This document shows positions 12,042 through 22,674 of a stretch of 64,000 bases of DNA, piece after piece. A program made the translations under genes and the position numbers. Each line of letters starts with the position of its first letter. Position 1 is the stretch's first letter. This DNA is from Flavobacteriales bacterium (GTDB taxonomy: Bacteria; Bacteroidota; Bacteroidia; M30B66). The notes beneath the pieces are model-generated. The model ran no database searches. It was not told the origin of the DNA and worked only from the letters and a program-made list of their open reading frames with translations. Location: assembly GCA_040403315.1 (NCBI GenBank), contig JBBAKX010000004.1:159658-223657 (forward strand), read 5' to 3'.

Positions 12042-14366
12042 ATGCCAACAATAAAAAGGATACTTTTGCTAATCAGCTTTTTATCGCCTATCTGGTCGAT
12101 TGCTCAGCAAAAATTCAGTATCAACGGAACGATTAAAGATGCAACATCTGGAGAAGAGCTCATTGGAGCAGCAGTTCTTGTAAAAGAGATGCCCGGAACA
12201 GGCGTTGTTGCGAACGCATACGGTTTCTATTCAATAGAACTTCCAACGGGCGAATACACTATGAGATTTCAGTACACTGGATATGAACTGAAGGAGCAAA
12301 AAGTTAAACTAGATAAAAACTTCAAACTAAATATCGAGTTAAAGCCCCGGAATTCTGAGCTGAAGGAAGTAGAAATTACTGCAGAAAAACCAGATGCAAG
12401 TCTCTCAAGGGTAAGCATGGGTGTAGAAAAACTCACAGCCAAAGAGATTAAGATGATTCCAGTTTTGTTCGGGGAGACCGACTTGCTAAAAACATTGCAA
12501 CTACTTCCAGGTGTTAAAAGTGCAGGCGAAGGAAATACAGGTTTTTTCGTACGAGGTGGTAGTGCAGATCAGAACCTTATTCTACTTGACGAGGCGCCAG
12601 TTTACAATGCCTCTCACCTACTCGGATTTTTCTCAGTGTTCAATTCTGATGCAGTAAAGGAAGCCACATTATACAAAGGCACAATGCCCACAGAGTTCGG
12701 TGGCCGGATGTCGTCTGTGTTAGATGTTAAAATGAATGAGGGAAATCAGAAAAAACTCAATGTACTTGGCGGTGTAGGTTTAATTGCTTCAAGATTAACA
12801 GTAGAAGCACCAATTTTAAAAGACAAAAGCTCTTTTACTGTATCCGCAAGACGCACATATGCTGATGTATTCTTGAAATTGTCGGCAGATACCAACCTCA
12901 GAAAATCTACACTTTATTTCTACGATTTAAATGCAAAATTTAACTACAAAATCAGCGATAAAGACCGCATATTCGTAAGTGGATATTTTGGTCGCGATAA
13001 TTTCGGATTTTCAGACCAATTTAGGTTCGACTGGGGAAATGCAACTGGAACCGTAAGATGGAATCACCTTTTTTCTGAAAAATTATTTTCAAATACTTCA
13101 TTAATTTTTAGTGATTATAATTACAAAATTAAATTATCCGCATCCGATTTCGATATTTCTATTGGATCTACCATTAGAGACTGGAATGTAAAACAAGATT
13201 ACCAGTATTTCATGAACAACAAGAGCACACTGAAATTTGGTTGGAATTCGATATACCACACCTTTATGCCTGGTGAAGTGGATGGGGCAGACTTTATTGA
13301 AAATCTTACCAACGAAAAAAGATATGCCTTAGAAAATTCCATTTACATTTCTCACCAATACCAATTCAATAAAAAATTATCAATCGATTACGGCCTCCGC
13401 GTTGGCTCATTTAGCTACATCGGCCCAGTTACCGTTTATGAATTCGATAATGATGGCAATGTTTCCAGCGAAAGGAGTTCCCAAAAAGGAGAGTTCATTA
13501 AAACGTATATCAATCCTGAACCTCGCCTAAGCATTAATTACCGAATAGATAGTTTGCAATCCATCAAAGGTGGATACAGCAGAACCGTTCAGAATTTGCA
13601 TTTGCTCAGCAATACCACTTCTGGAAATCCTACAGATATTTGGATACCTAGTTCTAACAATGTAAAAGCAGAATTAGGAGATCAATATTCGGCAGGTTAT
13701 TTCAGAAATTTGAAGGACAATAAATTCGAAGTTTCAGCAGAAACATATTATAAGTGGATGAACAACCAAATCGACTACCGAAATGGTGCTGAATTGATCC
13801 TAAATCAAGAAGTAGAAGGTGAATTGGTTTACGGAACAGGAAGAGCGTATGGCTTGGAATTGTTGCTTCGTAAAAAAACTGGAAAACTTACCGGTTGGGT
13901 TGGTTACACCTTATCTCGCACGGAACGAAAATTCGAAGAAATTAACGACGAGAATTATTTTGCTGCCAAGCAAGACAGAACCCACGATTTAACCATCGTA
14001 GCCATGTATGAATTAAATAAAAAATGGGCTTTATCGGCAAATTTCGTGTATTACACTGGCAATGCTGTTACTTTCCCAAGTGGTAAATATGAAATAGATG
14101 GGCAAGTGGTAAACTATTATTCCGAAAGAAATGGTTACAGAATGCCTGCCTATCATCGATTAGACTTCGGTGCAACATACTACCGCAAAAGAACCGATAC
14201 TTATGAGTCAAGCTGGTCGTTCAGTTTATACAATGCATACGGACGAGAAAACGCGTACACAATCAGCTTCCGCGAAAGCGATACCAATTCGGGCAAATCA
14301 GAAGCTTATCAATTATCTCTTTTTAGATGGATCCCATCTATCACTTATAACTTCCATTTCAAATGA
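12042..14366 (+). CDS. TonB-dependent outer-membrane receptor (CarboxypepD_reg-like N-domain + plug + beta-barrel)
   Basis: Signal peptide. N-terminal FSINGTIKD...GAAVLVKE carboxypeptidase-regulatory-like domain. Plug motifs (TDLLKTLQLLPGV, FVRGG, ILLDEAPVYN). Terminal aromatic residue. Confidence 0.85.
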   Translation: MPTIKRILLLISFLSPIWSIAQQKFSINGTIKDATSGEELIGAAVLVKEMPGTGVVANAYGFYSIELPTGEYTMRFQYTGYELKEQKVKLDKNFKLNIELKPRNSELKEVEITAEKPDASLSRVSMGVEKLTAKEIKMIPVLFGETDLLKTLQLLPGVKSAGEGNTGFFVRGGSADQNLILLDEAPVYNASHLLGFFSVFNSDAVKEATLYKGTMPTEFGGRMSSVLDVKMNEGNQKKLNVLGGVGLIASRLTVEAPILKDKSSFTVSARRTYADVFLKLSADTNLRKSTLYFYDLNAKFNYKISDKDRIFVSGYFGRDNFGFSDQFRFDWGNATGTVRWNHLFSEKLFSNTSLIFSDYNYKIKLSASDFDISIGSTIRDWNVKQDYQYFMNNKSTLKFGWNSIYHTFMPGEVDGADFIENLTNEKRYALENSIYISHQYQFNKKLSIDYGLRVGSFSYIGPVTVYEFDNDGNVSSERSSQKGEFIKTYINPEPRLSINYRIDSLQSIKGGYSRTVQNLHLLSNTTSGNPTDIWIPSSNNVKAELGDQYSAGYFRNLKDNKFEVSAETYYKWMNNQIDYRNGAELILNQEVEGELVYGTGRAYGLELLLRKKTGKLTGWVGYTLSRTERKFEEINDENYFAAKQDRTHDLTIVAMYELNKKWALSANFVYYTGNAVTFPSGKYEIDGQVVNYYSERNGYRMPAYHRLDFGATYYRKRTDTYESSWSFSLYNAYGRENAYTISFRESDTNSGKSEAYQLSLFRWIPSITYNFHFK

Positions 14367-15211
14367 GAAATTCAATATTTGCAATTGTTTCCATATTGGG
14401 CCTGATTTCATTTTCTAGTTGCGAAAAAGTAATCGACATCGATCTTAAAGAAAGCGATAATAAACTCGTAATCGAAGGCAAATTAAACAATGACGGAGAA
14501 TGTACAGTTAAGCTTACGCAAGTAAAAAACTACGATCAAGACAATGAATTCCCTGGCGTTGACGATGCCATTGTAGTGATCTTCGACGATTTGGGCAACC
14601 TAGACACACTTGAACAAGGAATCGCAGGCATGTTTTACTCTGAAGAAATTATTGGCACTCCAGGAGTAACCTATTCGCTTAATGTATTTTGGAACAACAA
14701 TAACTACACTTCGGTTTGTAAAATGCCAGAATTGGTTGCAATTGATTCACTATCGTTAAGAAAAGAAGTGTTTTTTTTTGACACAACTACCATTGCGATC
14801 GTTCATTTCAACGACCCAGGTTCAGAAAATAATTATTACAGATATCTTTACACTATAAATGCTACACTCAACAAAGACTATAATGTTGAAAGTGATAGAT
14901 TCTATAATGGTTTAACCGTAGAAACAAGAATTCCAATATTTAATGGAGGACCGAATAGTGGGCCCGGAGGAGGAGGTCCTGGAGGCCCCGGTAATATAGG
15001 ACCTGGACCAATAAACCCAGATACTTTAAGATTAGAAATGTGGGGAATTGACCAATCAATGGAACTCTACTACCGAACATTATCAGCATCTATTGATGCC
15101 GGTTCCGGACAACAAGCTGCACCTGCAAATCCTGAAAGTAACATCACTGGAGGTGCGTTGGGGTATTTTTCTGCATATTCAATCAGTAAAGCGTCTATCC
15201 TCATCGAATAA
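14363..15211 (+). CDS. DUF4249-family lipoprotein (usual partner of this TonB-receptor class)
   Basis: Overlaps the receptor stop by 4 nt. Lipobox SSC. N-terminal IDIDL...VIEGKL pattern. Contains a Gly/Pro-rich low-complexity insert (GGPNSGPGGGGPGGPGNIGPGP). Confidence 0.6.
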   Translation: MRNSIFAIVSILGLISFSSCEKVIDIDLKESDNKLVIEGKLNNDGECTVKLTQVKNYDQDNEFPGVDDAIVVIFDDLGNLDTLEQGIAGMFYSEEIIGTPGVTYSLNVFWNNNNYTSVCKMPELVAIDSLSLRKEVFFFDTTTIAIVHFNDPGSENNYYRYLYTINATLNKDYNVESDRFYNGLTVETRIPIFNGGPNSGPGGGGPGGPGNIGPGPINPDTLRLEMWGIDQSMELYYRTLSASIDAGSGQQAAPANPESNITGGALGYFSAYSISKASILIE

Positions 15212-15288
15212 CCATGAATCGAAAGGAATAGAAACAAGCTATGCTTTGGGATAATAATTGCGGATGATAAATTTATATTATTAAATAG

Positions 15289-15325
15289 ATTAACATGGAT
15301 ATTTAACCACTAAATATCCATGTTA
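15289..15325. terminator. Bidirectional hairpin between convergent genes
   Basis: Perfect 16-bp inverted repeat ttaacatggatattta / taaatatccatgttaa with a 5-nt loop. It overlaps the stop of the minus-strand gene. Confidence 0.55.
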
Positions 15326-15801
15326 ATTTGGTTTCCCATCGACTCCATTAATACTGGGCGAATTAAACTAAAAAGCAATACATGCATAAATTCAGTTTGT
15401 ATAGGCATTGCTCCAAACTGTTGAATAGTTAATATCGACTTCATGCCTGAAATGCTGATTCCATAAGACAATAATTCGTCACCATCAACAGATAAAACAT
15501 ACTCAACAAGTGGTCTATTTACTACTTTAATTTCAATTTTCTGTTTACCCGAAGTTCCTTGCCATACCGACTTCCACCATCGAGTTGCAGAAAGACTTAA
15601 CAAAACAGTTTGCTTACTATCTTTCACTTGAATGGAACTCCGAAACATACCAGCAATGTTTAAGCTGAATATTTCATTGTTTTCAATATTAAACACTGAT
15701 ATTTTGTGCGCTAAATTTTCAAACTTTACCAGAAGGGAAACACCTTTCTCAGGCGCAAATTCATAATAATTAAATTTTATTCGTTTCCAAGAATTTTTCA
15801 T
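15310..15801 (-). CDS. hypothetical protein (163 aa), last gene of the minus-strand operon
   Basis: ORF starts 2 nt after the upstream stop. No known motif. Confidence 0.5.
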   Translation of the reverse strand: MKNSWKRIKFNYYEFAPEKGVSLLVKFENLAHKISVFNIENNEIFSLNIAGMFRSSIQVKDSKQTVLLSLSATRWWKSVWQGTSGKQKIEIKVVNRPLVEYVLSVDGDELLSYGISISGMKSILTIQQFGAMPIQTEFMHVLLFSLIRPVLMESMGNQINMDI

Positions 15802-15803
15802 AA

Positions 15804-16313
15804 TTATTCTGATTTTAAAAAACTGTTTCCAAGTCGTTGAATAGATAATTGCAATAATTTTTGCAACGGTTGTTCGAAATCAGCACGATAATCTTCGTCA
15901 ATTCTCTTCAAATTAGATTGAGCTTTATCTAAGCAGCGAAAAATCACTTTGGCCAATGCTTGATATTTAAATTCAGCTCTCCAATGCTCATGAAATTGCT
16001 CAACTAAGTAAAGCAACAATTCCGTTTCGCCTTGCTTGTTAGATGTGAATCGGTAATATTTAGATACAATTCTAAGCGATTTTCTGATCGACTTTGTTAG
16101 ATAATAAGGATGTTGAAAAGGCAGAGTAAATATATCAACCAATTCGGGTTTCAATTTTTGAGCATAAAACAAAGGGTCATCGGCATCAAAAATTAAATAG
16201 GCCAATAATTCTTTATTTTCCCGCTTTAATTTTGCAACCCTTAAACACAATTTTATTAAATCTGGTTTACTTAATTCGGAAAGTTCTTTTTTTAAATCAC
16301 TCAACTTTTCCAT
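15804..16313 (-). CDS. hypothetical helical protein (about 170 aa)
   Basis: ATG at 16313 lies 1 nt after the stop of the upstream mini-gene. The track shows a TTG-extended version ending at 16322. No known motif. Confidence 0.5.
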   Translation of the reverse strand: MEKLSDLKKELSELSKPDLIKLCLRVAKLKRENKELLAYLIFDADDPLFYAQKLKPELVDIFTLPFQHPYYLTKSIRKSLRIVSKYYRFTSNKQGETELLLYLVEQFHEHWRAEFKYQALAKVIFRCLDKAQSNLKRIDEDYRADFEQPLQKLLQLSIQRLGNSFLKSE

Positions 16314-16314
16314 C

Positions 16315-16485
16315 TTACTCAAGATTTTGATTCTTCTTAGGCAAACGTGCCGTCTTTTTTAAGGCTTCACGTAAAATCCATTCCAATTGTCCGTTGGTAC
16401 TTCGAAACTCATCAGAAGCCCATTTTTCAACAGCTTTAAGCATATCTTCATCGAGTCGTAAAACAAATGGTTTCTTCTTACTCAT
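16315..16485 (-). CDS. Arc/MetJ-type ribbon-helix-helix DNA-binding protein (56 aa; below the ORF-track length cutoff)
   Basis: Manual translation of the minus strand gives MSKKKPFVLRLDEDMLKAVEKWASDEFRSTNGQLEWILREALKKTARLPKKNQNLE. The pattern is basic N-terminus, beta-strand (PFVLRL), then two helices, typical of Arc-family RHH proteins. The ATG overlaps the upstream stop as TAATG. Confidence 0.55.
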   Translation of the reverse strand: MSKKKPFVLRLDEDMLKAVEKWASDEFRSTNGQLEWILREALKKTARLPKKNQNLE

Positions 16486-16967
16486 TACAAATTCATTTTT
16501 TCTCGAATTTCTAATAAGGCTAATTCTAATTTCTGAGGCTCTGCAGTTCCAATGAGCAATTTTTTACCCGATTTAAAGGTAATTTGTAAACCAATATCAC
16601 CCGATACATTAAAAGCCTTATTGTTTTTTGTACCCTTAATGCCCCAGCCTCCAAATTCTCTCAATGGTTTGTATTTTCTCAGTTCTAAACTTTCAATATC
16701 TGCCCATAAATAAACTTTGGGCTTTAAATGAAATGGGACAAATCGAACAATTATGCTCTCCTTTTCAATTCTCACATAAAGAAATGAAAGTATCAAAAGA
16801 AAAATGGAAAGGACAATGATCACTGAAATAACGATCAGCCCCATCCAATCACCTTTCCCTTTATTTAGATTTATCAATCCTAAAATAATAGCAACCACCA
16901 TTCCCGGAATACCCAGTAAAGCAATCGAATTGCTTCTTAACATTTGCTTTTCCTCAAAAAACAGCAT
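16485..16967 (-). CDS. bacterial PH-domain (bPH_2/YdbS-YdbT-like) membrane protein
   Basis: Two N-terminal TM helices followed by a ~100-aa domain with the pattern of membrane-tethered bacterial PH domains. Confidence 0.45.
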   Translation of the reverse strand: MLFFEEKQMLRSNSIALLGIPGMVVAIILGLINLNKGKGDWMGLIVISVIIVLSIFLLILSFLYVRIEKESIIVRFVPFHLKPKVYLWADIESLELRKYKPLREFGGWGIKGTKNNKAFNVSGDIGLQITFKSGKKLLIGTAEPQKLELALLEIREKMNL

Positions 16968-16978
16968 AGAATTCGAAT

Positions 16979-17830
16979 TTAATTATTCAATGTGCCTGCA
17001 TTGATCACAGGACTTGCAGAGCGTTCGGAGCATAAAACCACCAATAAATTGCTCACCATTGCAGCTTTTCGTTCTTCATCTAATTCGATAATCTGTTTTT
17101 GCGACAGTTTTTCTAGCGCCAATTCTACCATACCTACAGCACCCTCAACGATTTTTGTTCGGGCAGCAACAACTGCAGTTGCTTGTTGACGCTGAAGCAT
17201 TGCTTGTGCAATTTCTGGCGAATAAGCTAAATTCGAAATCCTTGCTTCAATTACCTTAATCCCAGCAATGATTAGCCTTTCAGATAGCTCATGCTCAAGT
17301 TGAAGATTTATTTCATCTCCACCTGATCTCAAACTTAATTCGGTATGCGCGTCATCAAAAGTGTCGTACGGATAAGTTCCTGCCAGCTTTCGAATGGCCG
17401 ATTCACTCTGCATTTTGACAAACATTTCATAGCTATCAACTTCGAAGGCTGCCGAATAAGTGTCTTGCACTTTCCAAACCAACACTACACCAATCATCAC
17501 AGGGTTTCCGAGCTTGTCATTCACTTTAATTGGTTGCGATTCGTTGTTTCTGGCTCTAAGCGAAATTCTCTTCTTTACATAAAACGGATTCACCCAGAAA
17601 AAACCATTGTCTTTCACAGTCCCAGTGTATGACCCGAAAAGAACCATCACCATCGATTCGTTTGGATTCACAACCGTTAATCCGATTAGCAAAAAGCACC
17701 CTAGAATCGGAAGCACAATTGCTGGAACCATAGAAAAAGCTGCCAGCAAGTAAATACCTACACCTAATAATATTAAAGCTAAACTCATCATTAGCGCACC
17801 TTTTGTGGGCTTCATTTCTTTCTCTTTCAT
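16979..17830 (-). CDS. SPFH/band-7 (stomatin/flotillin-like) membrane protein
   Basis: N-terminal TM. SPFH core (GFFWVNPF...IGVVLVWKV). C-terminal coiled-coil region with QAMLQRQQA. Confidence 0.75.
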   Translation of the reverse strand: MKEKEMKPTKGALMMSLALILLGVGIYLLAAFSMVPAIVLPILGCFLLIGLTVVNPNESMVMVLFGSYTGTVKDNGFFWVNPFYVKKRISLRARNNESQPIKVNDKLGNPVMIGVVLVWKVQDTYSAAFEVDSYEMFVKMQSESAIRKLAGTYPYDTFDDAHTELSLRSGGDEINLQLEHELSERLIIAGIKVIEARISNLAYSPEIAQAMLQRQQATAVVAARTKIVEGAVGMVELALEKLSQKQIIELDEERKAAMVSNLLVVLCSERSASPVINAGTLNN

Positions 17831-17952
17831 TTGATATTATTTTGATATTACAAATGTATCACAATAAATCGCAATCCTGCAAGAAAATTCTTCATCAAAG
17901 CTTTAGATTAAGAATAGACGACTTTCAACCATGAATTCCTATCTTCGCCGAC

Positions 17953-18747
17953 ATGCCGCTATATTTTCACGGAAATGCTCCTCTAAAGTTCCAGCACCAG
18001 TATCTGGTTACACTCAATTACATCATTCCATACATCGAAAAACAGCAAGCTTTTCGCGAGAATATGGATGTTTTAGAGGTTGGTTGTGGAGAAGGTGGCG
18101 TGTTGAAAGCTTTCGCTGAAAAAAATTGCCGATGTACGGGGATGGACTTATCGGTGTCGAAAATTGAACATGGGAAGGAGCTGTTAGCCGAAGAAATTGC
18201 AGCTGGAAAAATGGAGTTGTTTTCAGCAGATATCTACGACCAGAAAACAATGGATGCGTTCCGCGGAAAGTTCGATCTTATCATTTTAAAAGATACCATC
18301 GAGCATATCCCGGAGCAGGAAAAAGTAATGGCTCAGTTGGAAGTATATCTTAAAAAAGGTGGTCGATTATTTTTTGCCTTCCCTCCGTGGAGGATGCCCT
18401 TTGGAGGACATCAACAAACTGCCACAACAAAAATCGGGAAACTCCCTTGGATGCACCTACTCCCAAGAGGATTGTATCAAGCTTGGCTTCGAAAGATTGG
18501 AGAACCAGAACCTACTGTAATTTCGTTGATGGAAATTTACGATACACGAATTTCAATAGATCGCTTCGAGCGCATTTGCCGAAATACTGGATATACCATT
18601 CAAAACCGAAGATTGTATTTAATTAATCCAATTTATCGATATAAATTCGGAAGATCTCCAAGAATACAATTTGGCATTTTATCAGTGATTCCGTGGTTCA
18701 GAGACTTTATAAGCACCACAGCTTATTACATATTGAAACGCGATTAA
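17953..18747 (+). CDS. class I SAM-dependent methyltransferase
   Basis: Motif I (VLEVGCGEGG) and motif II (DLIILKDTIEHI) are present. Confidence 0.7.
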   Translation: MPLYFHGNAPLKFQHQYLVTLNYIIPYIEKQQAFRENMDVLEVGCGEGGVLKAFAEKNCRCTGMDLSVSKIEHGKELLAEEIAAGKMELFSADIYDQKTMDAFRGKFDLIILKDTIEHIPEQEKVMAQLEVYLKKGGRLFFAFPPWRMPFGGHQQTATTKIGKLPWMHLLPRGLYQAWLRKIGEPEPTVISLMEIYDTRISIDRFERICRNTGYTIQNRRLYLINPIYRYKFGRSPRIQFGILSVIPWFRDFISTTAYYILKRD

Positions 18748-18972: not shown

Positions 18973-21900
18973 TCAATCTTCAAGCAACTTTGGTAATTCA
19001 ACAAAAAAGGTAGTGCCTTCTCCAACTGCGGTTTCAAACCAAATTTTACCGTTCGAACTCTCTACAATATTCTTCACCAACGCCAAACCGAGACCCATAC
19101 CACCATTTTTTGTTGTGAAATTAGGATTGAAAATCTTATCCCTTAATTCTTCTGAAATACCTGTTCCATTGTCGGAAATTAACACTACATAATTGCTCTC
19201 TTTTATATCTAATGTAAGATCGATCCGTTTAGTCTCTTTGTCATGCATTGCCTGAACTGCATTGCGGATAAGGTTATTGAAAACACGAATCATCTGTTCT
19301 TTATCGGTTAAAACAAAACAAGAACGGTTAATGCTTGATTGAAAACTAATTTCCACGTCTTCTTCACCTTGATGGAAATCTCTTGCGCTAAGAATCAATT
19401 CGGCTAAATCGATTTTTTCTTTAACCATCTTAGGCATTTTCGCAAAATTCCCGAACTCTGTCGCAATGTGACTTAATGTATCGATTTGCTCGATTAAATT
19501 TTTAGTAAACCTGTCTATCCGTTGATCAAACCCTGGCGCCTGATCGTCCCATGCACGCTTCAACATTTGGGCACCTAACTTCATGGGCGTTAGCGGATTC
19601 TTGATTTCGTGCGCTACTTGTTTTGCCATTTCACGCCAAGCACTTTCTCGCTCCGACCTTGCTAATTTATCGGCACTCTCAGCCAATTCGCCCAACATTC
19701 GATTATACTCTCCAATGAGCTCTCCAATTTCATCTTTGCCTTTCCATTCAATGGCTTCGTTTTTCCTTCCCAAACGGAGATTCCCCAAACGTTCTTGAAT
19801 AATTCGTAGTGGTTCGGTTACCGAATTAGACAGGAAAATTGCAGCAATTACAACGAGAACAATCAATAAAACGTAAATATTGATAATGGCTACAACGAAG
19901 GTTGCAATCTCGCGTCGAAGCTCGCTTTGCCTTGCAAAATATGGAAGATTCAAATATCCAATTACTCGATTTTCGGAGTTCCTTAATGGGACATATGCTG
20001 ACAAATAATCTAACTTTCCGATACGTTCTTGGTGCACAAATTCGGTTGATTTTTCAACCAATAAATGGTGATATGCATCCGAATTCATCTTACGAGAAAC
20101 GAGCCCTTCATCAAATACTTTTGTTCTGGATGAGGCGAATAAAAAACCCGACGGGGTAAAAATGTTAATATCTGCAAAGAACACATTTGATTGCCGTGTT
20201 AATGCATAAGCAATATCTTCCGCTTTGGAGGGATCTAAATAAGAATCCTTATTCAATAAATAATCTGTTTCAACCAAAATCGAATGAATCTTCTCGCTAA
20301 TTGATCGATAATTCTTTTGATTGTTATTTGAAATGATATATGAAATTGTACCACCTCCAATGAGGAAAAGCGATAAGAATAGAATTAATATAATCGACAA
20401 TTGAATTCTTCTTTTAAAGCTAAACGTTACATTTTTCTTGGTGAGCCAAAACTCCCTAATTAAAAAAGGAATTAAAACCATCAACCCAAAAAACAACATT
20501 AAATACGAAAAAGGTGTAAGAACTTGAAGCACTCCAGAAGAAGGAAGGCTCAGTACCACCAGTGATTGTGCGCCTGATCTTGAAGCCAAGTGACTAAAAC
20601 CTCCAAATTGCAATTGAATTGGATTATCAAATCCTGCCTTTTTAAAAAGTGTATCACTTAAGCTATAAGGAAATTGTCCAAAATGAGACACCAATTTGCC
20701 TGCATTGTAGCGTGCATAACTGTATTTAGTCATGTCAGTTTTGGTACTCACCATTTTATCGAGCAGCAATTCAGGATACCCAATTTCTTCGGGGGTGTAA
20801 CGTGAATTTAACTCGATGTATAAATTCCCAAGCGGAATTGAGTCTCTTGGCGTATCGTAAACTGCCAATCGCGCCAAATAGCTAATTCTTCCTGAATTGT
20901 TATCGAGGAAAAAGAAATTCTCGCTTAATGTTGGAATTCCGATTGAATCAATTAAATGATCAAAGACCAATGGATCATTACCTGAATTTGTATACAGTGT
21001 TGTTAATGGACATTCATCTGCACCAAAAACTTGCACGTTAATTTTATATTTTTCCCAGTAGCCATTAAAAAACAATTGTGCTAAATCTCGAACCTGTCCT
21101 GTTATCGTAGTTCCTGGTCGCAAGTAACTTTTTAAAAGTGTATCAGAAAGAATTCTCTTTTCTGTTTCAAGAAATAAACTCTCTGCAATTGGATCTCGCT
21201 CAGCTGCAATTTTCCCCGCTAACAATTGGCGTTTCTCAATTTCTCGAGAATTGGTATATCTTAAAATAAAAGATGTTCCTACCAAAGAAAAAAGTGCAAT
21301 TAACCCAATAATAGAACCGTAACGATAAGGCTTAGCACCGTATGATGAAAGCCATATTCCACTCAACAATAAACCTACAGAAGGCAATAATGTGAAATCC
21401 AAATCTCCCCAATAAACATCTAATAAGGTTAATATGATAACCAAAAATCCAAGAGTCGCAAAAAATGATTTATGACCAACTGCTGAAGGCTTCAGTATAC
21501 TAAGCCCTTTGTCGGCCAGTAAAAAAAAGGATGCAAAAAGTATCCCTGTAATTAAATAGGAAATATAACTGCTTAGTGTTAGGGATAGAAAATCGTTTAT
21601 ATCTAAAGAAATACTTGAATTAATAATTAATCCTCGAAGCAAATCGAAACAAAACCAGCCCAAAAAAAGCAAGACCAATAAAACAGCAAATGTAATTAGC
21701 GTTTTTCTTTGGACTTTAACAATAAAATTGGATTGGTAAATAAGTAAAACAGAATAAAAAAGAAAAATACTATTTAAAAATAAATCACCTAAACTTGGTA
21801 ACCAATTAGATGCCCCATATTCGCTTGGATTAAACAAATCTGAAGCATAGAGAATTTCAGGTATTTTAAAATAAAATGAAACCGCTCTGAGCAATAATAA

Positions 21901-22674
21901 ACTTAACCACCACAGGAAAATCAATTTCTTTCCACGTGTTTTTGAAATTACTTTAACAGTCCAATGGCCCGAAACCAAGAACATAGCCAATCCTAGATAA
22001 ATGAGCCAATTCAAGTTGCTATTGCGGTGGTTTTCACCCAATGGATCATCAATAGCCTTAAACCAAACTGCAATTTTTCCACGTTTATCGAGCACTGGCT
22101 GACTTCCAATAACAGGATCGTTGTACAATTCAGCATCGCCGGAGATTGTCTTGTTTCCTGGAAAATGATCATGCAGATAATCGTTCTGGTATGAATATTC
22201 TCGCTTAATCAGCGCCATTGCTGTAATCCCACAATTGCCTGTTTTAATTCTGCGAACGAGGTACCAACCGTTCTTTAGTTTCCAAAGTTGCTTATCGGGA
22301 TATTCTCTGATGACATCTAATCCTATCGGAACGGTATTGTCGCTCCAAAAATGAAAAATTTCATCGTCATAACGGAACAATGCTATCTGCTGTTCCTCTG
22401 ATGCTTTCTTCCACTTTTCGGGATAATTTCGGTAATCCCCAAAATCTAAACATGAATCAGCCGAAAACGCTTCAGCAACTTTTAACAATTGCGTCTCTCG
22501 CTCAATAAGGTAATTCCTGAATTCAATTAACTGCTGAGCCGAATCTTCCTTTTTGTGCAAAACCTCATGCCAGTAATATGTCGATCCCAAAGTGAGCAAC
22601 GACAAAATCAAAAGCAGAATAGGCAGTTTCTTCACGAGAATGGTTGATGTACAAATTAACAACAATAAGCACAA
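18973..22674 (-). CDS. 7TMR-DISM-type sensor histidine kinase (periplasmic sensor + 7TM + HisKA + HATPase); no receiver domain
   Basis: Signal/TM at the N-terminus. Large extracytoplasmic domain. Seven-helix membrane block. H-box (AHEIKNPLTPM). C-terminal HATPase N/G1/G2 boxes (NLIRNAVQA, DNGTGI, GGMGLGL). Confidence 0.8.
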   Translation of the reverse strand: MCLLLLICTSTILVKKLPILLLILSLLTLGSTYYWHEVLHKKEDSAQQLIEFRNYLIERETQLLKVAEAFSADSCLDFGDYRNYPEKWKKASEEQQIALFRYDDEIFHFWSDNTVPIGLDVIREYPDKQLWKLKNGWYLVRRIKTGNCGITAMALIKREYSYQNDYLHDHFPGNKTISGDAELYNDPVIGSQPVLDKRGKIAVWFKAIDDPLGENHRNSNLNWLIYLGLAMFLVSGHWTVKVISKTRGKKLIFLWWLSLLLLRAVSFYFKIPEILYASDLFNPSEYGASNWLPSLGDLFLNSIFLFYSVLLIYQSNFIVKVQRKTLITFAVLLVLLFLGWFCFDLLRGLIINSSISLDINDFLSLTLSSYISYLITGILFASFFLLADKGLSILKPSAVGHKSFFATLGFLVIILTLLDVYWGDLDFTLLPSVGLLLSGIWLSSYGAKPYRYGSIIGLIALFSLVGTSFILRYTNSREIEKRQLLAGKIAAERDPIAESLFLETEKRILSDTLLKSYLRPGTTITGQVRDLAQLFFNGYWEKYKINVQVFGADECPLTTLYTNSGNDPLVFDHLIDSIGIPTLSENFFFLDNNSGRISYLARLAVYDTPRDSIPLGNLYIELNSRYTPEEIGYPELLLDKMVSTKTDMTKYSYARYNAGKLVSHFGQFPYSLSDTLFKKAGFDNPIQLQFGGFSHLASRSGAQSLVVLSLPSSGVLQVLTPFSYLMLFFGLMVLIPFLIREFWLTKKNVTFSFKRRIQLSIILILFLSLFLIGGGTISYIISNNNQKNYRSISEKIHSILVETDYLLNKDSYLDPSKAEDIAYALTRQSNVFFADINIFTPSGFLFASSRTKVFDEGLVSRKMNSDAYHHLLVEKSTEFVHQERIGKLDYLSAYVPLRNSENRVIGYLNLPYFARQSELRREIATFVVAIINIYVLLIVLVVIAAIFLSNSVTEPLRIIQERLGNLRLGRKNEAIEWKGKDEIGELIGEYNRMLGELAESADKLARSERESAWREMAKQVAHEIKNPLTPMKLGAQMLKRAWDDQAPGFDQRIDRFTKNLIEQIDTLSHIATEFGNFAKMPKMVKEKIDLAELILSARDFHQGEEDVEISFQSSINRSCFVLTDKEQMIRVFNNLIRNAVQAMHDKETKRIDLTLDIKESNYVVLISDNGTGISEELRDKIFNPNFTTKNGGMGLGLALVKNIVESSNGKIWFETAVGEGTTFFVELPKLLED

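What the first reader, a model, noticed from the sequence alone, without database searches (positions are those of the whole stretch)
15310..17830. Five-gene minus-strand operon SPFH - bPH_2 membrane protein - Arc-like RHH mini-gene (missing from ORF track) - two unknown proteins, with stop/start overlaps
Hand translation reveals a 56-aa Arc-family ribbon-helix-helix gene at 16315-16485. Its ATG overlaps the stop of the bPH_2 gene as TAATG, and its stop lies 1 nt before the ATG of the next unknown gene. The final unknown gene follows after 2 nt. RHH proteins are classic antitoxins or autoregulators. Finding one translationally coupled between a band-7/PH-domain membrane pair and two uncharacterised soluble proteins (170 and 163 aa) is an unusual architecture. 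It could be a TA-like or membrane-stress module.
Basis: partly seen in the sequence, partly recalled or inferred. Interest (0 to 1): 0.55.

Follow-up and report, generated by a model that had tools for sequence, protein, structure and literature searches.

The report
Self-repressed membrane-scaffold operon of Bacteroidota
The five genes are real, but the small DNA-binding gene is not an antitoxin: it is most likely the dedicated repressor of a membrane-scaffold (SPFH) gene, a pairing with its DNA target site kept across the phylum Bacteroidota, and the two unknown genes are recent local additions.

Summary
There are five tightly packed minus-strand genes at 15310-17830: SPFH, a 2-TM protein, a 56-aa Arc-type RHH, and two unknowns. 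The junctions are exactly as described. The toxin-antitoxin interpretation does not hold.

In 80 loci from different genomes, the RHH gene lies downstream of the SPFH gene on the same strand in 78. The two exceptions are a contig that ends inside SPFH and a 2.8-kb contig. The 2-TM gene is present in about a third of loci, unknown 1 in two, and unknown 2 in two.

All 81 promoters (the 80 loci plus the window) carry the same site: two 8-mers, TGATATCA-N3-TAATATCA, with centres 11 bp apart, directly after a Bacteroidota-type -7 box. That spacing matches the Arc operator of phage P22.

The RHH aligns end to end with Arc. It keeps the residues that align with Arc's DNA-contact residues and has no toxin-binding tail.

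Unknown 2 belongs to a small family that elsewhere occurs without SPFH or RHH. Neither unknown matches a toxin or defence family.

Most likely this is an SPFH operon repressed by its own Arc-like product, with lineage-specific accessory genes attached. I found no published description of this pairing or this operator. DNA binding, the inducing signal and the accessory functions are inferred, not shown.

The parts
17851..17858 (-). Bacteroidota-type -7 promoter box (TACATTTG, matching TAnnTTTG)
   Evidence: Read from the sequence. The same TAnnTTTG-like element sits directly 5' of the operator in the position table built from 81 loci. That this is the Bacteroidota -7 consensus comes from my own knowledge. 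The transcription start site is not mapped.
17832..17850 (-). Candidate RHH operator: two 8-mers, TAATATCA (17843-17850) and TAATATCA (17832-17839), centres 11 bp apart, ending 1 nt before the SPFH ATG
   Evidence: It is the only match in the 64-kb window (exact). The same site lies upstream of SPFH in 81 of 81 loci, with 0 mismatches in 50, 1 in 27 and 2 in 4. Background is 6 hits at <=1 mismatch in 859 kb searched on both strands. No base-pair covariation, so an RNA hairpin reading is not supported.
16979..17830 (-). SPFH/Band 7 membrane-scaffold protein, 283 aa; one long hydrophobic stretch at residues 8-57 followed by the SPFH domain
   Evidence: Pfam Band_7 at E=1.5e-22. Hydropathy. At least 588 relatives in species-representative genomes, and the best 80 are 56-85% identical. 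dN/dS about 0.05. Only distantly related to solved SPFH proteins: QmcA E=5e-4, PH stomatin E=1.3e-3.
16485..16967 (-). Optional accessory: 2-TM protein with a C-terminal domain carrying an EYGGWG-type motif
   Evidence: Two hydrophobic segments. Present between SPFH and RHH in about 26-30 of 80 loci, sometimes duplicated. No bPH_2 match. Family members give sub-threshold matches to DUF6141 (13 of 18) and one to bPH_7.
16315..16485 (-). Arc-type ribbon-helix-helix protein, 56 aa; proposed autorepressor
   Evidence: Pfam Arc 28.2 bits against a 20.4 cut-off. PHROG repressor families match. Aligns from residue 1 to 48 with P22 Arc. Downstream of SPFH in 78 of 80 loci, and next to SPFH plus operator in the two viral-collection contigs that could be tested. 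In a 62-sequence alignment K4, K5, R10, E20, W22, F27, R28, S29, Q33 and E35 are invariant, and F7, N31, G32 and R47 differ in one sequence each. dN/dS about 0.03.
15804..16313 (-). Unknown 1: all-helical, basic (pI 9.2) 169-aa protein; lineage-specific accessory that always follows the RHH gene
   Evidence: Only 36 homologue clusters, all >=48% identical. In every context examined it starts at or inside the 3' end of the RHH gene, with or without the 2-TM gene and unknown 2. AF2 model pLDDT 80, seven helices. No match by fold or profile.
15310..15801 (-). Unknown 2: 163-aa protein predicted as 12 beta-strands plus a hydrophobic C-terminal helix; recently attached to the operon's 3' end
   Evidence: AF2 model pLDDT 81, pTM 0.80. 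The family has 86 representative clusters, all about 160-170 aa. Fifteen distant members have no SPFH, RHH, 2-TM or unknown 1 gene nearby. Weak hints of a Tubby-like fold: Foldseek hit to 1zxu at E=0.1, TM 0.33, and 1 of 72 members matches Pfam Tubby_C_like at E=0.003.
15289..15327 (-). Stem-loop overlapping the unknown 2 stop codon; likely transcript end, facing the convergent DUF4249 gene
   Evidence: Terminator scan reports 18 pairs. RNAfold gives a 17-bp stem at -21.6 kcal/mol. It is not conserved in this form in L003 or L087.

Best explanation
This is an SPFH (Band 7) membrane-scaffold operon that carries its own Arc-type RHH repressor.

Proposed mechanism:
- RHH dimers bind two adjacent 8-bp boxes (TGATATCA-N3-TAATATCA, centres one helical turn apart).
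- The boxes start right after the -7 promoter element and cover the expected transcription start.
- The operon therefore represses itself and holds the level of the scaffold protein.

Gene-content pattern:
- SPFH, RHH and operator form a core kept across Bacteroidota.
- The 2-TM protein is a frequent optional insert.
- Unknown 1 was added after the RHH gene in one narrow clade.
- Unknown 2 is a gene family that stands alone elsewhere and joined the 3' end in an even narrower group.
- None of the five genes is a toxin-antitoxin pair.

What is shown: the gene order, its conservation, the conserved DNA site, and the Arc-like sequence features. What is inferred: that this RHH binds this site, that binding represses, and that the accessory proteins act at the membrane together with SPFH.
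For: (1) Linkage. The RHH gene lies downstream of SPFH on the same strand in 78 of 80 loci. The exceptions are a contig that ends inside SPFH and a 2.8-kb contig. A reverse search starting from the RHH in viral contigs gave 4 loci. The 2 with upstream sequence both have operator, SPFH and RHH.

(2) Operator. It is present in 81 of 81 promoters with at most 2 mismatches in 12 specified bases, and in 77 of 81 with at most 1. Elsewhere there are only 6 such hits in 859 kb searched on both strands. It directly abuts a TAnnTTTG-like box. In the window it is the only match and is exact.

(3) Arc-like features. The 11-bp spacing of the two subsites equals that of the P22 Arc operator (my own knowledge). 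The RHH passes Pfam Arc's cut-off. It aligns with Arc residues 4-51, with invariant R10 opposite Arc R13 and R28-S29-x-N31 opposite Arc R31-S32-x-N34.

(4) The site is not an RNA hairpin. The would-be pair (4,10) is a C-A mismatch in 50 of 81 loci, no compensatory changes are seen, and the mean fold energy is -2.1 kcal/mol.

(5) It is not a toxin-antitoxin pair.
- The RHH is 56 aa with about 8 residues beyond the fold.
- Unknown 1 and unknown 2 are each in 2 of 80 loci.
- The unknown 2 family occurs without RHH in all 15 of the distant loci examined.
- There are no toxin or defence matches.
- A genuine RHH_1 plus PemK/MazF pair next to the operon in L010 shows what a real one looks like: a 90-aa antitoxin and a recognisable toxin.

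(6) Single transcription unit. Gaps are 11, -1, 1 and 2 nt, with a promoter at one end and a hairpin at the other.
Against: - No binding, transcript or expression data exist. The link between the RHH and the site rests on co-occurrence and on analogy with Arc.
- Another factor could bind the palindromic boxes.
- The transcription start is predicted, not mapped.
- A 56-aa RHH has no sensor domain, so how repression would be relieved is unknown.
- Several invariant residues (E20, W22, E35) are not explained by DNA binding alone and may indicate a protein partner.
- All comparisons are within one phylum, so conservation of the site and the genes share ancestry.
- Several genome records carry non-Bacteroidota names that I could not check.
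- dS is near saturation, so the dN/dS values are rough.
- The functions of the 2-TM protein, unknown 1 and unknown 2 remain guesses.
Confidence: 0.68

Rival explanations
1. Type II toxin-antitoxin (or similar addiction) module: the RHH is an antitoxin that neutralises unknown 1 or unknown 2 and represses the operon.
For: RHH proteins are common antitoxins. The RHH and unknown 1 genes are translationally coupled in every context seen. Both unknowns are orphan proteins with no assigned function.
Against: - The RHH is linked across the phylum to SPFH, not to the unknowns.
- Its length of 56 aa leaves no toxin-binding tail.
- Neither unknown matches a toxin or defence profile or fold.
- The unknown 2 family occurs alone next to panB and a sigma-54 response regulator.
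- The module is syntenic and vertically conserved, not patchy or mobile.
Confidence: 0.04
2. Membrane-coupled switch: the RHH represses the operon, and its activity is controlled by sequestration or release at the SPFH assembly, possibly through the 2-TM protein or unknown 1. The operon would then report and correct membrane state, by analogy with PspA-PspF partner switching.
For: The pairing of a sensor-less repressor with a membrane scaffold is strictly conserved. Invariant surface-type residues in the RHH are not obviously needed for DNA contact, and it has a basic C-terminal tail. Genes inserted into the operon in other lineages are mostly membrane-associated or small proteins: DUF4177, Zn_ribbon_13, SdpI/DUF1648, GPP34, PAP2, DUF3784 and a predicted alpha/beta hydrolase with a hydrophobic N-terminus. 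SPFH proteins take part in envelope-stress systems in Bacillus (PMC8581546; PMC11237479).
Against: There is no evidence of any RHH-SPFH contact. Simple constitutive autorepression explains the same data. The orientation of the SPFH domain is only inferred from charge and hydropathy.
Confidence: 0.18
3. The conserved boxes are not the RHH's target. They are bound by another regulator or act within the 5' leader RNA, and the RHH has a different target or a non-DNA role as a small partner of SPFH.
For: The boxes are palindromic and could suit many dimeric regulators. They also lie in the transcribed leader and can draw a weak hairpin. Binding has not been tested.
Against: The RHH keeps the residues that align with Arc's DNA-contact and phosphate-contact residues. 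The 11-bp phasing is typical of RHH operators (my own knowledge). The hairpin shows no covariation and is very weak. No other regulator gene is conserved at the locus.
Confidence: 0.08
4. Anti-phage defence or mobile-element cargo built around an SPFH protein.
For: Some defence systems contain membrane proteins. A PADLOC model (PycTM) gives a weak hit to the 2-TM protein at E=0.0027. Four relatives were found in the viral contig collection.
Against: No PADLOC family is matched convincingly by any of the five proteins. The locus is stable across the phylum, its flanks are ordinary chromosomal genes, and no integrase or other mobility gene was seen beside it. The viral-collection contigs simply carry the same operator-SPFH-RHH unit.
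Confidence: 0.02

Closest known systems
Phage P22 Arc repressor and its operator (Arc/MetJ ribbon-helix-helix superfamily, Pfam PF03869)
   Same: Similar size (56 aa here, 53 aa for Arc). End-to-end alignment. The Pfam Arc cut-off is passed. R10 is conserved opposite Arc R13, and the RSxN motif opposite Arc R31-S32-x-N34. The candidate operator has two subsites with centres 11 bp apart overlapping the promoter, as in the Arc operator (spacing from my own knowledge).
   Different: It is chromosomal and conserved across a phylum rather than phage-borne. The box sequence differs (TGATATCA-like, each box itself palindromic). It controls a membrane-scaffold operon in which it is a distal gene. Binding is not demonstrated.
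Prokaryotic SPFH operons with an NfeD partner (stomatin/NfeD, FloT/YuaF; Hinderhofer et al. 2009, PMC2636767)
   Same: An SPFH protein with an N-terminal membrane anchor is co-transcribed with a small membrane protein that has a soluble C-terminal domain.
   Different: The partner here gives no NfeD match and is optional. The constant partner is a DNA-binding RHH, which that survey does not report for any subfamily. It states that subfamilies 6-12 have no documented members or partners. I could not assign this protein to one of the twelve subfamilies.
Bacillus subtilis pspA-ydjGHI (samGHI) envelope-stress operon with the SPFH protein YdjI (PMC8581546; bioRxiv 10.64898/2026.02.06.704340)
   Same: An SPFH protein is encoded with small membrane or zinc-ribbon proteins and linked to membrane stress. 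In some Bacteroidota loci a Zn_ribbon_13 gene follows the RHH.
   Different: There is no PspA, PspC or Toastrack homologue here. The regulator type and gene set differ. The resemblance is thematic only.
Type II toxin-antitoxin systems with RHH antitoxins (ParD, CcdA, RelB, and the CopG/PemK pair seen in L010)
   Same: A small RHH gene translationally coupled to the next gene.
   Different: There is no toxin-binding extension, no recognisable toxin, and no co-conservation with the downstream gene. Inheritance with SPFH is vertical.
Tubby C-terminal-like / LURP-one (DUF567) fold, for unknown 2 only
   Same: The predicted order of 12 beta-strands followed by a hydrophobic C-terminal helix in about 160 aa. 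The best full-length Foldseek hit is the LURP-one protein 1zxu. One family member matches Pfam Tubby_C_like.

Membership tests
Arc family RHH (Pfam PF03869) | Profile match above the curated cut-off | tested here: met
   28.2 bits against a 20.4 cut-off, residues 1-48 on profile positions 1-48 of 50. PHROG 'transcriptional repressor' and 'Arc-like repressor' families match at E=6e-5 and 1e-4.
Arc family RHH (Pfam PF03869) | N-terminal beta-strand with DNA-facing residues, and a phosphate-contact motif at the start of helix B | tested here: met
   Alignment with P22 Arc (1arq, residues 4-51). In 62 sequences K4, K5, R10, R28, S29 and Q33 are invariant, and F7, N31 and G32 differ in one sequence each. 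The fold itself was not modelled.
Arc family RHH (Pfam PF03869) | Binds repeated subsites about one helical turn apart at its own promoter | tested here: inconclusive
   A candidate site with exactly this layout is conserved in 81 of 81 promoters. Binding itself cannot be tested with these tools.
Type II toxin-antitoxin module | Antitoxin carries a toxin-neutralising extension beyond the DNA-binding fold | tested here: not met
   The protein is 56 aa and the Arc alignment covers residues 1-48, leaving a short basic tail. The genuine RHH antitoxin in L010 is 90 aa.
Type II toxin-antitoxin module | Neighbouring gene belongs to a toxin family or fold | tested here: not met
   No Pfam, NCBIfam, PADLOC or PHROG match for unknown 1 or unknown 2. 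No significant PDB fold or profile match.
Type II toxin-antitoxin module | Antitoxin and toxin genes are co-conserved as a pair | tested here: not met
   RHH is in 78 of 80 loci, unknown 1 in 2 of 80, and unknown 2 in 2 of 80. Fifteen loci with members of the unknown 2 family lack the RHH.
Type II toxin-antitoxin module | Toxicity relieved by the antitoxin | not testable with these tools
   Needs expression experiments.
SPFH / Band 7 (Pfam PF01145) | SPFH domain plus an N-terminal membrane anchor | tested here: met
   Band_7 at E=1.5e-22, residues 53-225. Hydrophobic stretch at residues 8-57.
SPFH-NfeD operon type (SPFH1/2/5) | Adjacent NfeD-family partner | tested here: not met
   No NfeD match for the 2-TM protein or its relatives. 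The partner is absent from about two thirds of loci.
bPH_2 (Pfam PF03703) | Profile match to bPH_2 | tested here: not met
   No match at E<=1 for the window protein. Among 18 family members, 13 give sub-threshold DUF6141 matches (best E=3e-6) and 1 matches bPH_7 at E=0.02; none matches bPH_2. A PH-like fold is possible but was not modelled.
Tubby C-terminal-like / LURP-one fold (unknown 2) | 12-stranded barrel around a C-terminal hydrophobic helix, with significant structural or profile similarity | tested here: inconclusive
Psp-type envelope stress system | PspA/IM30, PspC or Toastrack component | tested here: not met
   No such Pfam or NCBIfam match in the five proteins or in the accessory genes examined.
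Known anti-phage defence systems (PADLOC-DB) | Match to a defence-system protein model | tested here: not met
   Only a weak PycTM hit (E=0.0027) to the transmembrane part of the 2-TM protein and a Cas3 hit at E=0.04 to the RHH.

The most novel reading that the evidence does not exclude
The SPFH scaffold and its Arc-like repressor form a membrane-state feedback circuit conserved across the phylum. The sensor-less RHH would be held or released by the SPFH assembly, helped in some lineages by the 2-TM protein, unknown 1 or other inserted membrane proteins. Damage or remodelling of the membrane would then directly derepress the operon, and possibly other genes carrying TGATATCA-N3-TAATATCA sites. 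This would be an envelope-homeostasis system for Bacteroidota, which lack the classical Psp regulators at this locus, and would give this uncharacterised SPFH subfamily a defined regulatory partner.
Probability: 0.18. Interest if true: 0.7.

Novelty: new member of a known kind. Interest (0 to 1): 0.4.

Why it matters
SPFH/Band 7 scaffolds are near-universal, yet outside HflK/C and the flotillins their regulation and partners in bacteria are poorly known. Here a strongly conserved SPFH subfamily (56-85% identity among the 80 closest loci, dN/dS about 0.05) gets three concrete handles: a dedicated Arc-type regulator, an exact candidate operator, and a list of optional partner genes. All of this is testable in cultured Chryseobacterium, Runella, Maribellus or Roseivirga strains with standard gel-shift, deletion and reporter experiments.

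The work also corrects a tempting misreading. A small RHH gene coupled to orphan genes looks like an antitoxin but is not one here. The operator could also be useful as a compact, portable repressor-operator pair for genetic tools in Bacteroidota. If the repressor proves to be controlled by the scaffold itself, it would be a new route for sensing membrane state.

Tried and rejected
(1) Toxin-antitoxin reading: rejected on synteny, RHH length and the absence of toxin signatures.

(2) RNA hairpin or leader element instead of an operator: rejected, because there is no covariation, mismatches are frequent and the mean energy is -2.1 kcal/mol. Rfam found nothing relevant in 14800-18400.

(3) bPH_2 membership of the 2-TM protein: not supported. 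A profile search against PDB sequences gave only noise.

(4) Unknown 1 as a divergent GPP34/GOLPH3 protein, the family found after the RHH gene in L015 and L020: hhalign probability 0.1%, rejected.

(5) Fold assignment for unknown 1: Foldseek against PDB, a profile against PDB sequences, and a bulk Pfam scan all came back empty.

(7) Context search with the broad unknown 2 alignments failed for lack of a conserved stretch. A narrower alignment worked.

(8) Literature searches for SPFH with RHH or Arc, 'Arc-like DNA binding' with 'band 7', and the box sequence found nothing relevant. The PSP comparative-genomics paper and the SPFH survey do not describe this pair.

(9) Covariation between RHH strand residue 6 and the outer bases of box 1: all 7 sequences with V6 have A at position -1 of box 1 (6 read CA, one TA), and none reads TG. 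This is confounded by phylogeny and is not used as evidence.

(10) The sigma-70 promoter scan gave no more hits than shuffled sequence and is not informative for Bacteroidota.


Full report
1. WHAT IS IN THE WINDOW

Five ORFs lie head to tail on the minus strand:
- SPFH, 16979-17830, 283 aa
- a 2-TM protein, 16485-16967, 160 aa
- an RHH protein, 16315-16485, 56 aa
- unknown 1, 15804-16313, 169 aa from the ATG that its homologues share
- unknown 2, 15310-15801, 163 aa

Pfam confirms Band_7 for the first protein (E=1.5e-22). For the 56-aa protein it confirms Arc (PF03869) at 28.2 bits against a cut-off of 20.4, while RHH_1 stays below its cut-off. The second protein has two hydrophobic segments but no bPH_2 match. 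Its relatives give sub-threshold matches to DUF6141 in 13 of 18 members, and one matches bPH_7 at E=0.02. A membrane-anchored PH-like protein is therefore possible, but the family label is not supported.

Gene calls on a public assembly already include the 56-aa gene.

2. WHICH GENES BELONG TOGETHER

I aligned SPFH homologues and scanned one genome per species. At least 588 stretches encode a relative, and the best 80 loci were kept, at 56-85% identity. Most records are named as Bacteroidota of several orders. A few MAG records carry other names that I could not verify.

tblastn of the five window proteins against these loci gave the following:
- The RHH gene lies downstream of SPFH on the same strand in 78 of 80 loci, at 44-92% identity. 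One exception is a contig that ends inside SPFH, the other a 2.8-kb contig.
- The 2-TM gene is present in roughly a third of loci.
- Unknown 1 is present in only L003 and L004.
- Unknown 2 is present in only L003. A diverged copy in L004 was found by profile comparison (hhalign 80%, E=1.5e-5).

Clustering the ORFs of all loci gives this general layout:
SPFH -> [DUF4177, about 50 aa] -> [2-TM protein, one to three copies] -> [predicted alpha/beta hydrolase with a hydrophobic N-terminus] -> RHH -> [Zn_ribbon_13, SdpI/DUF1648, GPP34 and others] -> unrelated genes.
The accessory genes were identified by Pfam.

The reverse test started from an RHH alignment and searched the viral contig collection. 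It gave four loci. The two with upstream sequence again show operator, SPFH and RHH.

Unknown 1 has only 36 homologue clusters, all at least 48% identical. In every context I could read, it starts at or inside the end of the RHH gene: SPFH-RHH-unknown 1, SPFH-2TM-RHH-unknown 1, and the full five genes.

Unknown 2 has 6 close clusters and 86 representative clusters in an exhaustive profile search. Fifteen metagenome loci with distant members contain none of the other four genes. In two of them the gene lies between panB and a sigma-54 response regulator, and in L088 kdpA follows.

The nesting is therefore:
- a core of SPFH plus RHH, conserved across the phylum;
- a patchy 2-TM insert;
- unknown 1, confined to one clade;
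- unknown 2, added in a still narrower group.

3. THE CONSERVED DNA SITE

Printing the 130 nt upstream of SPFH in all loci shows one motif almost everywhere. It consists of two 8-mers, consensus TGATATCA and TAATATCA, separated by three A/T bases, so their centres are 11 bp apart.

Using the 12 specified bases ATATCA-N5-ATATCA, the best upstream site has 0 mismatches in 50 loci, 1 in 27 and 2 in 4, out of 81 including the window. Outside the promoter regions there are 6 hits with at most 1 mismatch in 859 kb searched on both strands. In the window the site is exact, unique in 64 kb, and ends 1 nt before the SPFH ATG (17832-17848 for the 17-nt pattern, 17832-17850 for the two 8-mers).

Directly 5' of box 1, the position table shows T-A-T-n-W-T-T-G. 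This matches the Bacteroidota -7 promoter element TAnnTTTG (my own knowledge). In the window it is TACATTTG at 17851-17858. The expected transcription start therefore falls inside box 1.

A weaker third repeat (T-n-A-T-A-T), 11 bp further upstream, overlaps the -7 element in many loci.

Because each box is a palindrome, the two boxes could also pair as a hairpin. However, substitutions break the pairs rather than compensate: there is a C-A mismatch at pair (4,10) in 50 of 81 loci and an A-C mismatch at (-1,15) in 16. The mean fold energy of the site as RNA is only -2.1 kcal/mol. A protein-binding site is the better reading.

4. THE RHH PROTEIN

In an alignment of 62 sequences, K4, K5, R10, E20, W22, F27, R28, S29, Q33 and E35 are invariant. 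F7, N31, G32 and R47 differ in one sequence each.

The protein aligns from residue 1 to 48 with residues 4-51 of P22 Arc. F7-V-L-R10 lies opposite Arc F10-N-L-R13, and R28-S29-T-N31 lies opposite Arc R31-S32-V-N34. In Arc these include the strand residues that read bases and the residues that contact phosphates (my own knowledge).

After the fold only a short basic tail remains. Against L003, dN/dS is about 0.03, the lowest of the five genes.

An Arc tetramer binds two subsites 11 bp apart (my own knowledge), the same layout as the site found here. The simplest model is that the RHH represses its own operon by occupying the start-site region. This is an inference from co-occurrence and analogy. 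No binding data exist.

5. THE OTHER PROTEINS

SPFH. It has one 50-residue hydrophobic stretch (residues 8-57) after a lysine-rich N-terminus. This suggests a hairpin or two helices with the SPFH domain in the cytoplasm (inference). It is only distantly similar to solved SPFH proteins: QmcA at E=5e-4 and PH stomatin at E=1.3e-3. The 2009 survey of prokaryotic SPFH proteins reports NfeD partners for subfamilies 1, 2 and 5 and none for the small subfamilies 6-12. It mentions no DNA-binding partner. I could not assign this protein to a numbered subfamily.

Unknown 1. The model is all-helical (pLDDT 80, pTM 0.65) and the protein is basic (pI 9.2). It has no fold or profile match and is not related to GPP34.

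Unknown 2. The model has 12 strands plus a hydrophobic C-terminal helix (pLDDT 81, pTM 0.80). This order of elements recalls Tubby-like/LURP-one proteins. The only support is a Foldseek hit to 1zxu at E=0.1 and TM 0.33, and one of 72 family members matching Pfam Tubby_C_like at E=0.003. I treat this as a lead, not an assignment.

No PADLOC defence model fits any of the five proteins.

6. WHY IT IS NOT A TOXIN-ANTITOXIN MODULE

- The RHH stays with SPFH, not with the unknowns.
- It lacks a toxin-binding extension.
- The unknowns have no toxin features.
- The unknown 2 family lives alone elsewhere.
- The module is inherited vertically with stable flanks.

For contrast, locus L010 carries a textbook pair just downstream of its SPFH-RHH genes: a 90-aa RHH_1/RHH_3 protein and a PemK/MazF toxin.

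7. BOUNDARIES OF THE UNIT

The promoter and operator lie at 17832-17858. A 17-18 bp stem-loop at 15289-15327 overlaps the stop codon of unknown 2 and faces the convergent DUF4249 gene. This hairpin is strong in the window (-21.6 kcal/mol) but is not conserved in that form in L003 or L087.

8. COMPARISON WITH KNOWN SYSTEMS, AND NOVELTY

In mechanism this is a classical Arc-type autorepressed operon, and the proteins belong to known superfamilies. What I could not find described is the following:
- the constant pairing of this SPFH subfamily with an Arc-like gene;
- the conserved operator;
- the set of optional inserted genes.

Six full-text searches and two papers read found no such description. 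The library searched is incomplete, so this is absence of evidence only.

I file it as a new member of a known kind, of moderate interest. The more novel possibility is that the scaffold itself controls the repressor, making a membrane-state feedback loop. The data do not exclude this, and I give it about 0.18.

9. LIMITS

- All evidence is comparative.
- Only the 80 closest of at least 588 loci were examined.
- dS is near saturation.
- My ORF calling in the loci was simple (ATG starts, longest first), so the exact counts of accessory genes are approximate.
- Two fold libraries were unavailable.
- The functions proposed for the 2-TM protein, unknown 1 and unknown 2 are guesses.

Noticed in passing
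L087 3119-3601 compared with window 16485-16967: The 2-TM gene of L087 is far closer to the window's copy (pS 0.24, pN 0.05) than its four neighbours are (pS about 0.7-0.8). This suggests a recent recombination or gene replacement confined to this one gene of the operon.
   Followed up: no
L010 7058-7656: A genuine toxin-antitoxin pair (a 90-aa RHH_1/RHH_3 protein plus a PemK/MazF toxin) sits directly downstream of that genome's SPFH-RHH pair. It is a useful contrast to the Arc-like gene.
   Followed up: partly
L088 4989-5492 and L096 4989-5495: Distant members of the unknown 2 family lie between a divergently transcribed panB and a sigma-54-dependent response regulator. In L088 kdpA follows. 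This conserved context is unrelated to SPFH.
   Followed up: partly
L018, L033, L036, L041, L045, L047, L048, L068, L070 (downstream of RHH); L028, L030, L051, L062, L063 and others (after SPFH): Other lineages insert different small genes into the same operon: Zn_ribbon_13 (70 aa) after the RHH gene, DUF4177 (about 50 aa) right after SPFH, a predicted alpha/beta hydrolase with a hydrophobic N-terminus before the RHH gene, and SdpI/DUF1648, GPP34, PAP2 or DUF3784 proteins after it. Most of these are membrane-associated.
   Followed up: partly
L013, L014, L016, L021, L022, L023, L037: All 7 RHH sequences with valine at strand position 6 have A rather than the usual G at position -1 of box 1 (6 read CA, one TA), and none reads TG. 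This could be protein-DNA co-variation, but it is confounded by shared ancestry.
   Followed up: partly
window 15289-15327: An unusually long, perfect 17-18 bp inverted repeat overlaps the stop codon of unknown 2, between convergent genes. It is not conserved in this form in the two closest loci.
   Followed up: partly
window 12042-15211 (+): A TonB-dependent-receptor-like gene (CarboxypepD_reg plus Plug, 774 aa) overlaps by 4 nt with a DUF4249 gene (282 aa) that carries a glycine/proline-rich stretch. Together they form a separate outer-membrane gene pair convergent with the operon.
   Followed up: no
window 17953-18747 (+) and 18973-22674 (-): Upstream neighbours are a divergently transcribed class I SAM methyltransferase, which shares the 122-bp intergenic region with the SPFH promoter, and a 1233-aa multi-pass histidine kinase. 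Upstream neighbours differ among the 80 loci, so co-regulation with the methyltransferase is unlikely but was not tested.
   Followed up: no
L003, L004, L006, L008, L012, L046, L049 (record titles): Several MAG records carrying this operon are named Chitinophaga pinensis, Comamonas, Clostridia, Bifidobacterium, Chloroflexia or Syntrophothermus. Yet their SPFH genes are 59-85% identical to the window's, in the same range as the records named Bacteroidota. The names are probably binning or labelling errors, so the true taxonomic reach is uncertain.
   Followed up: no
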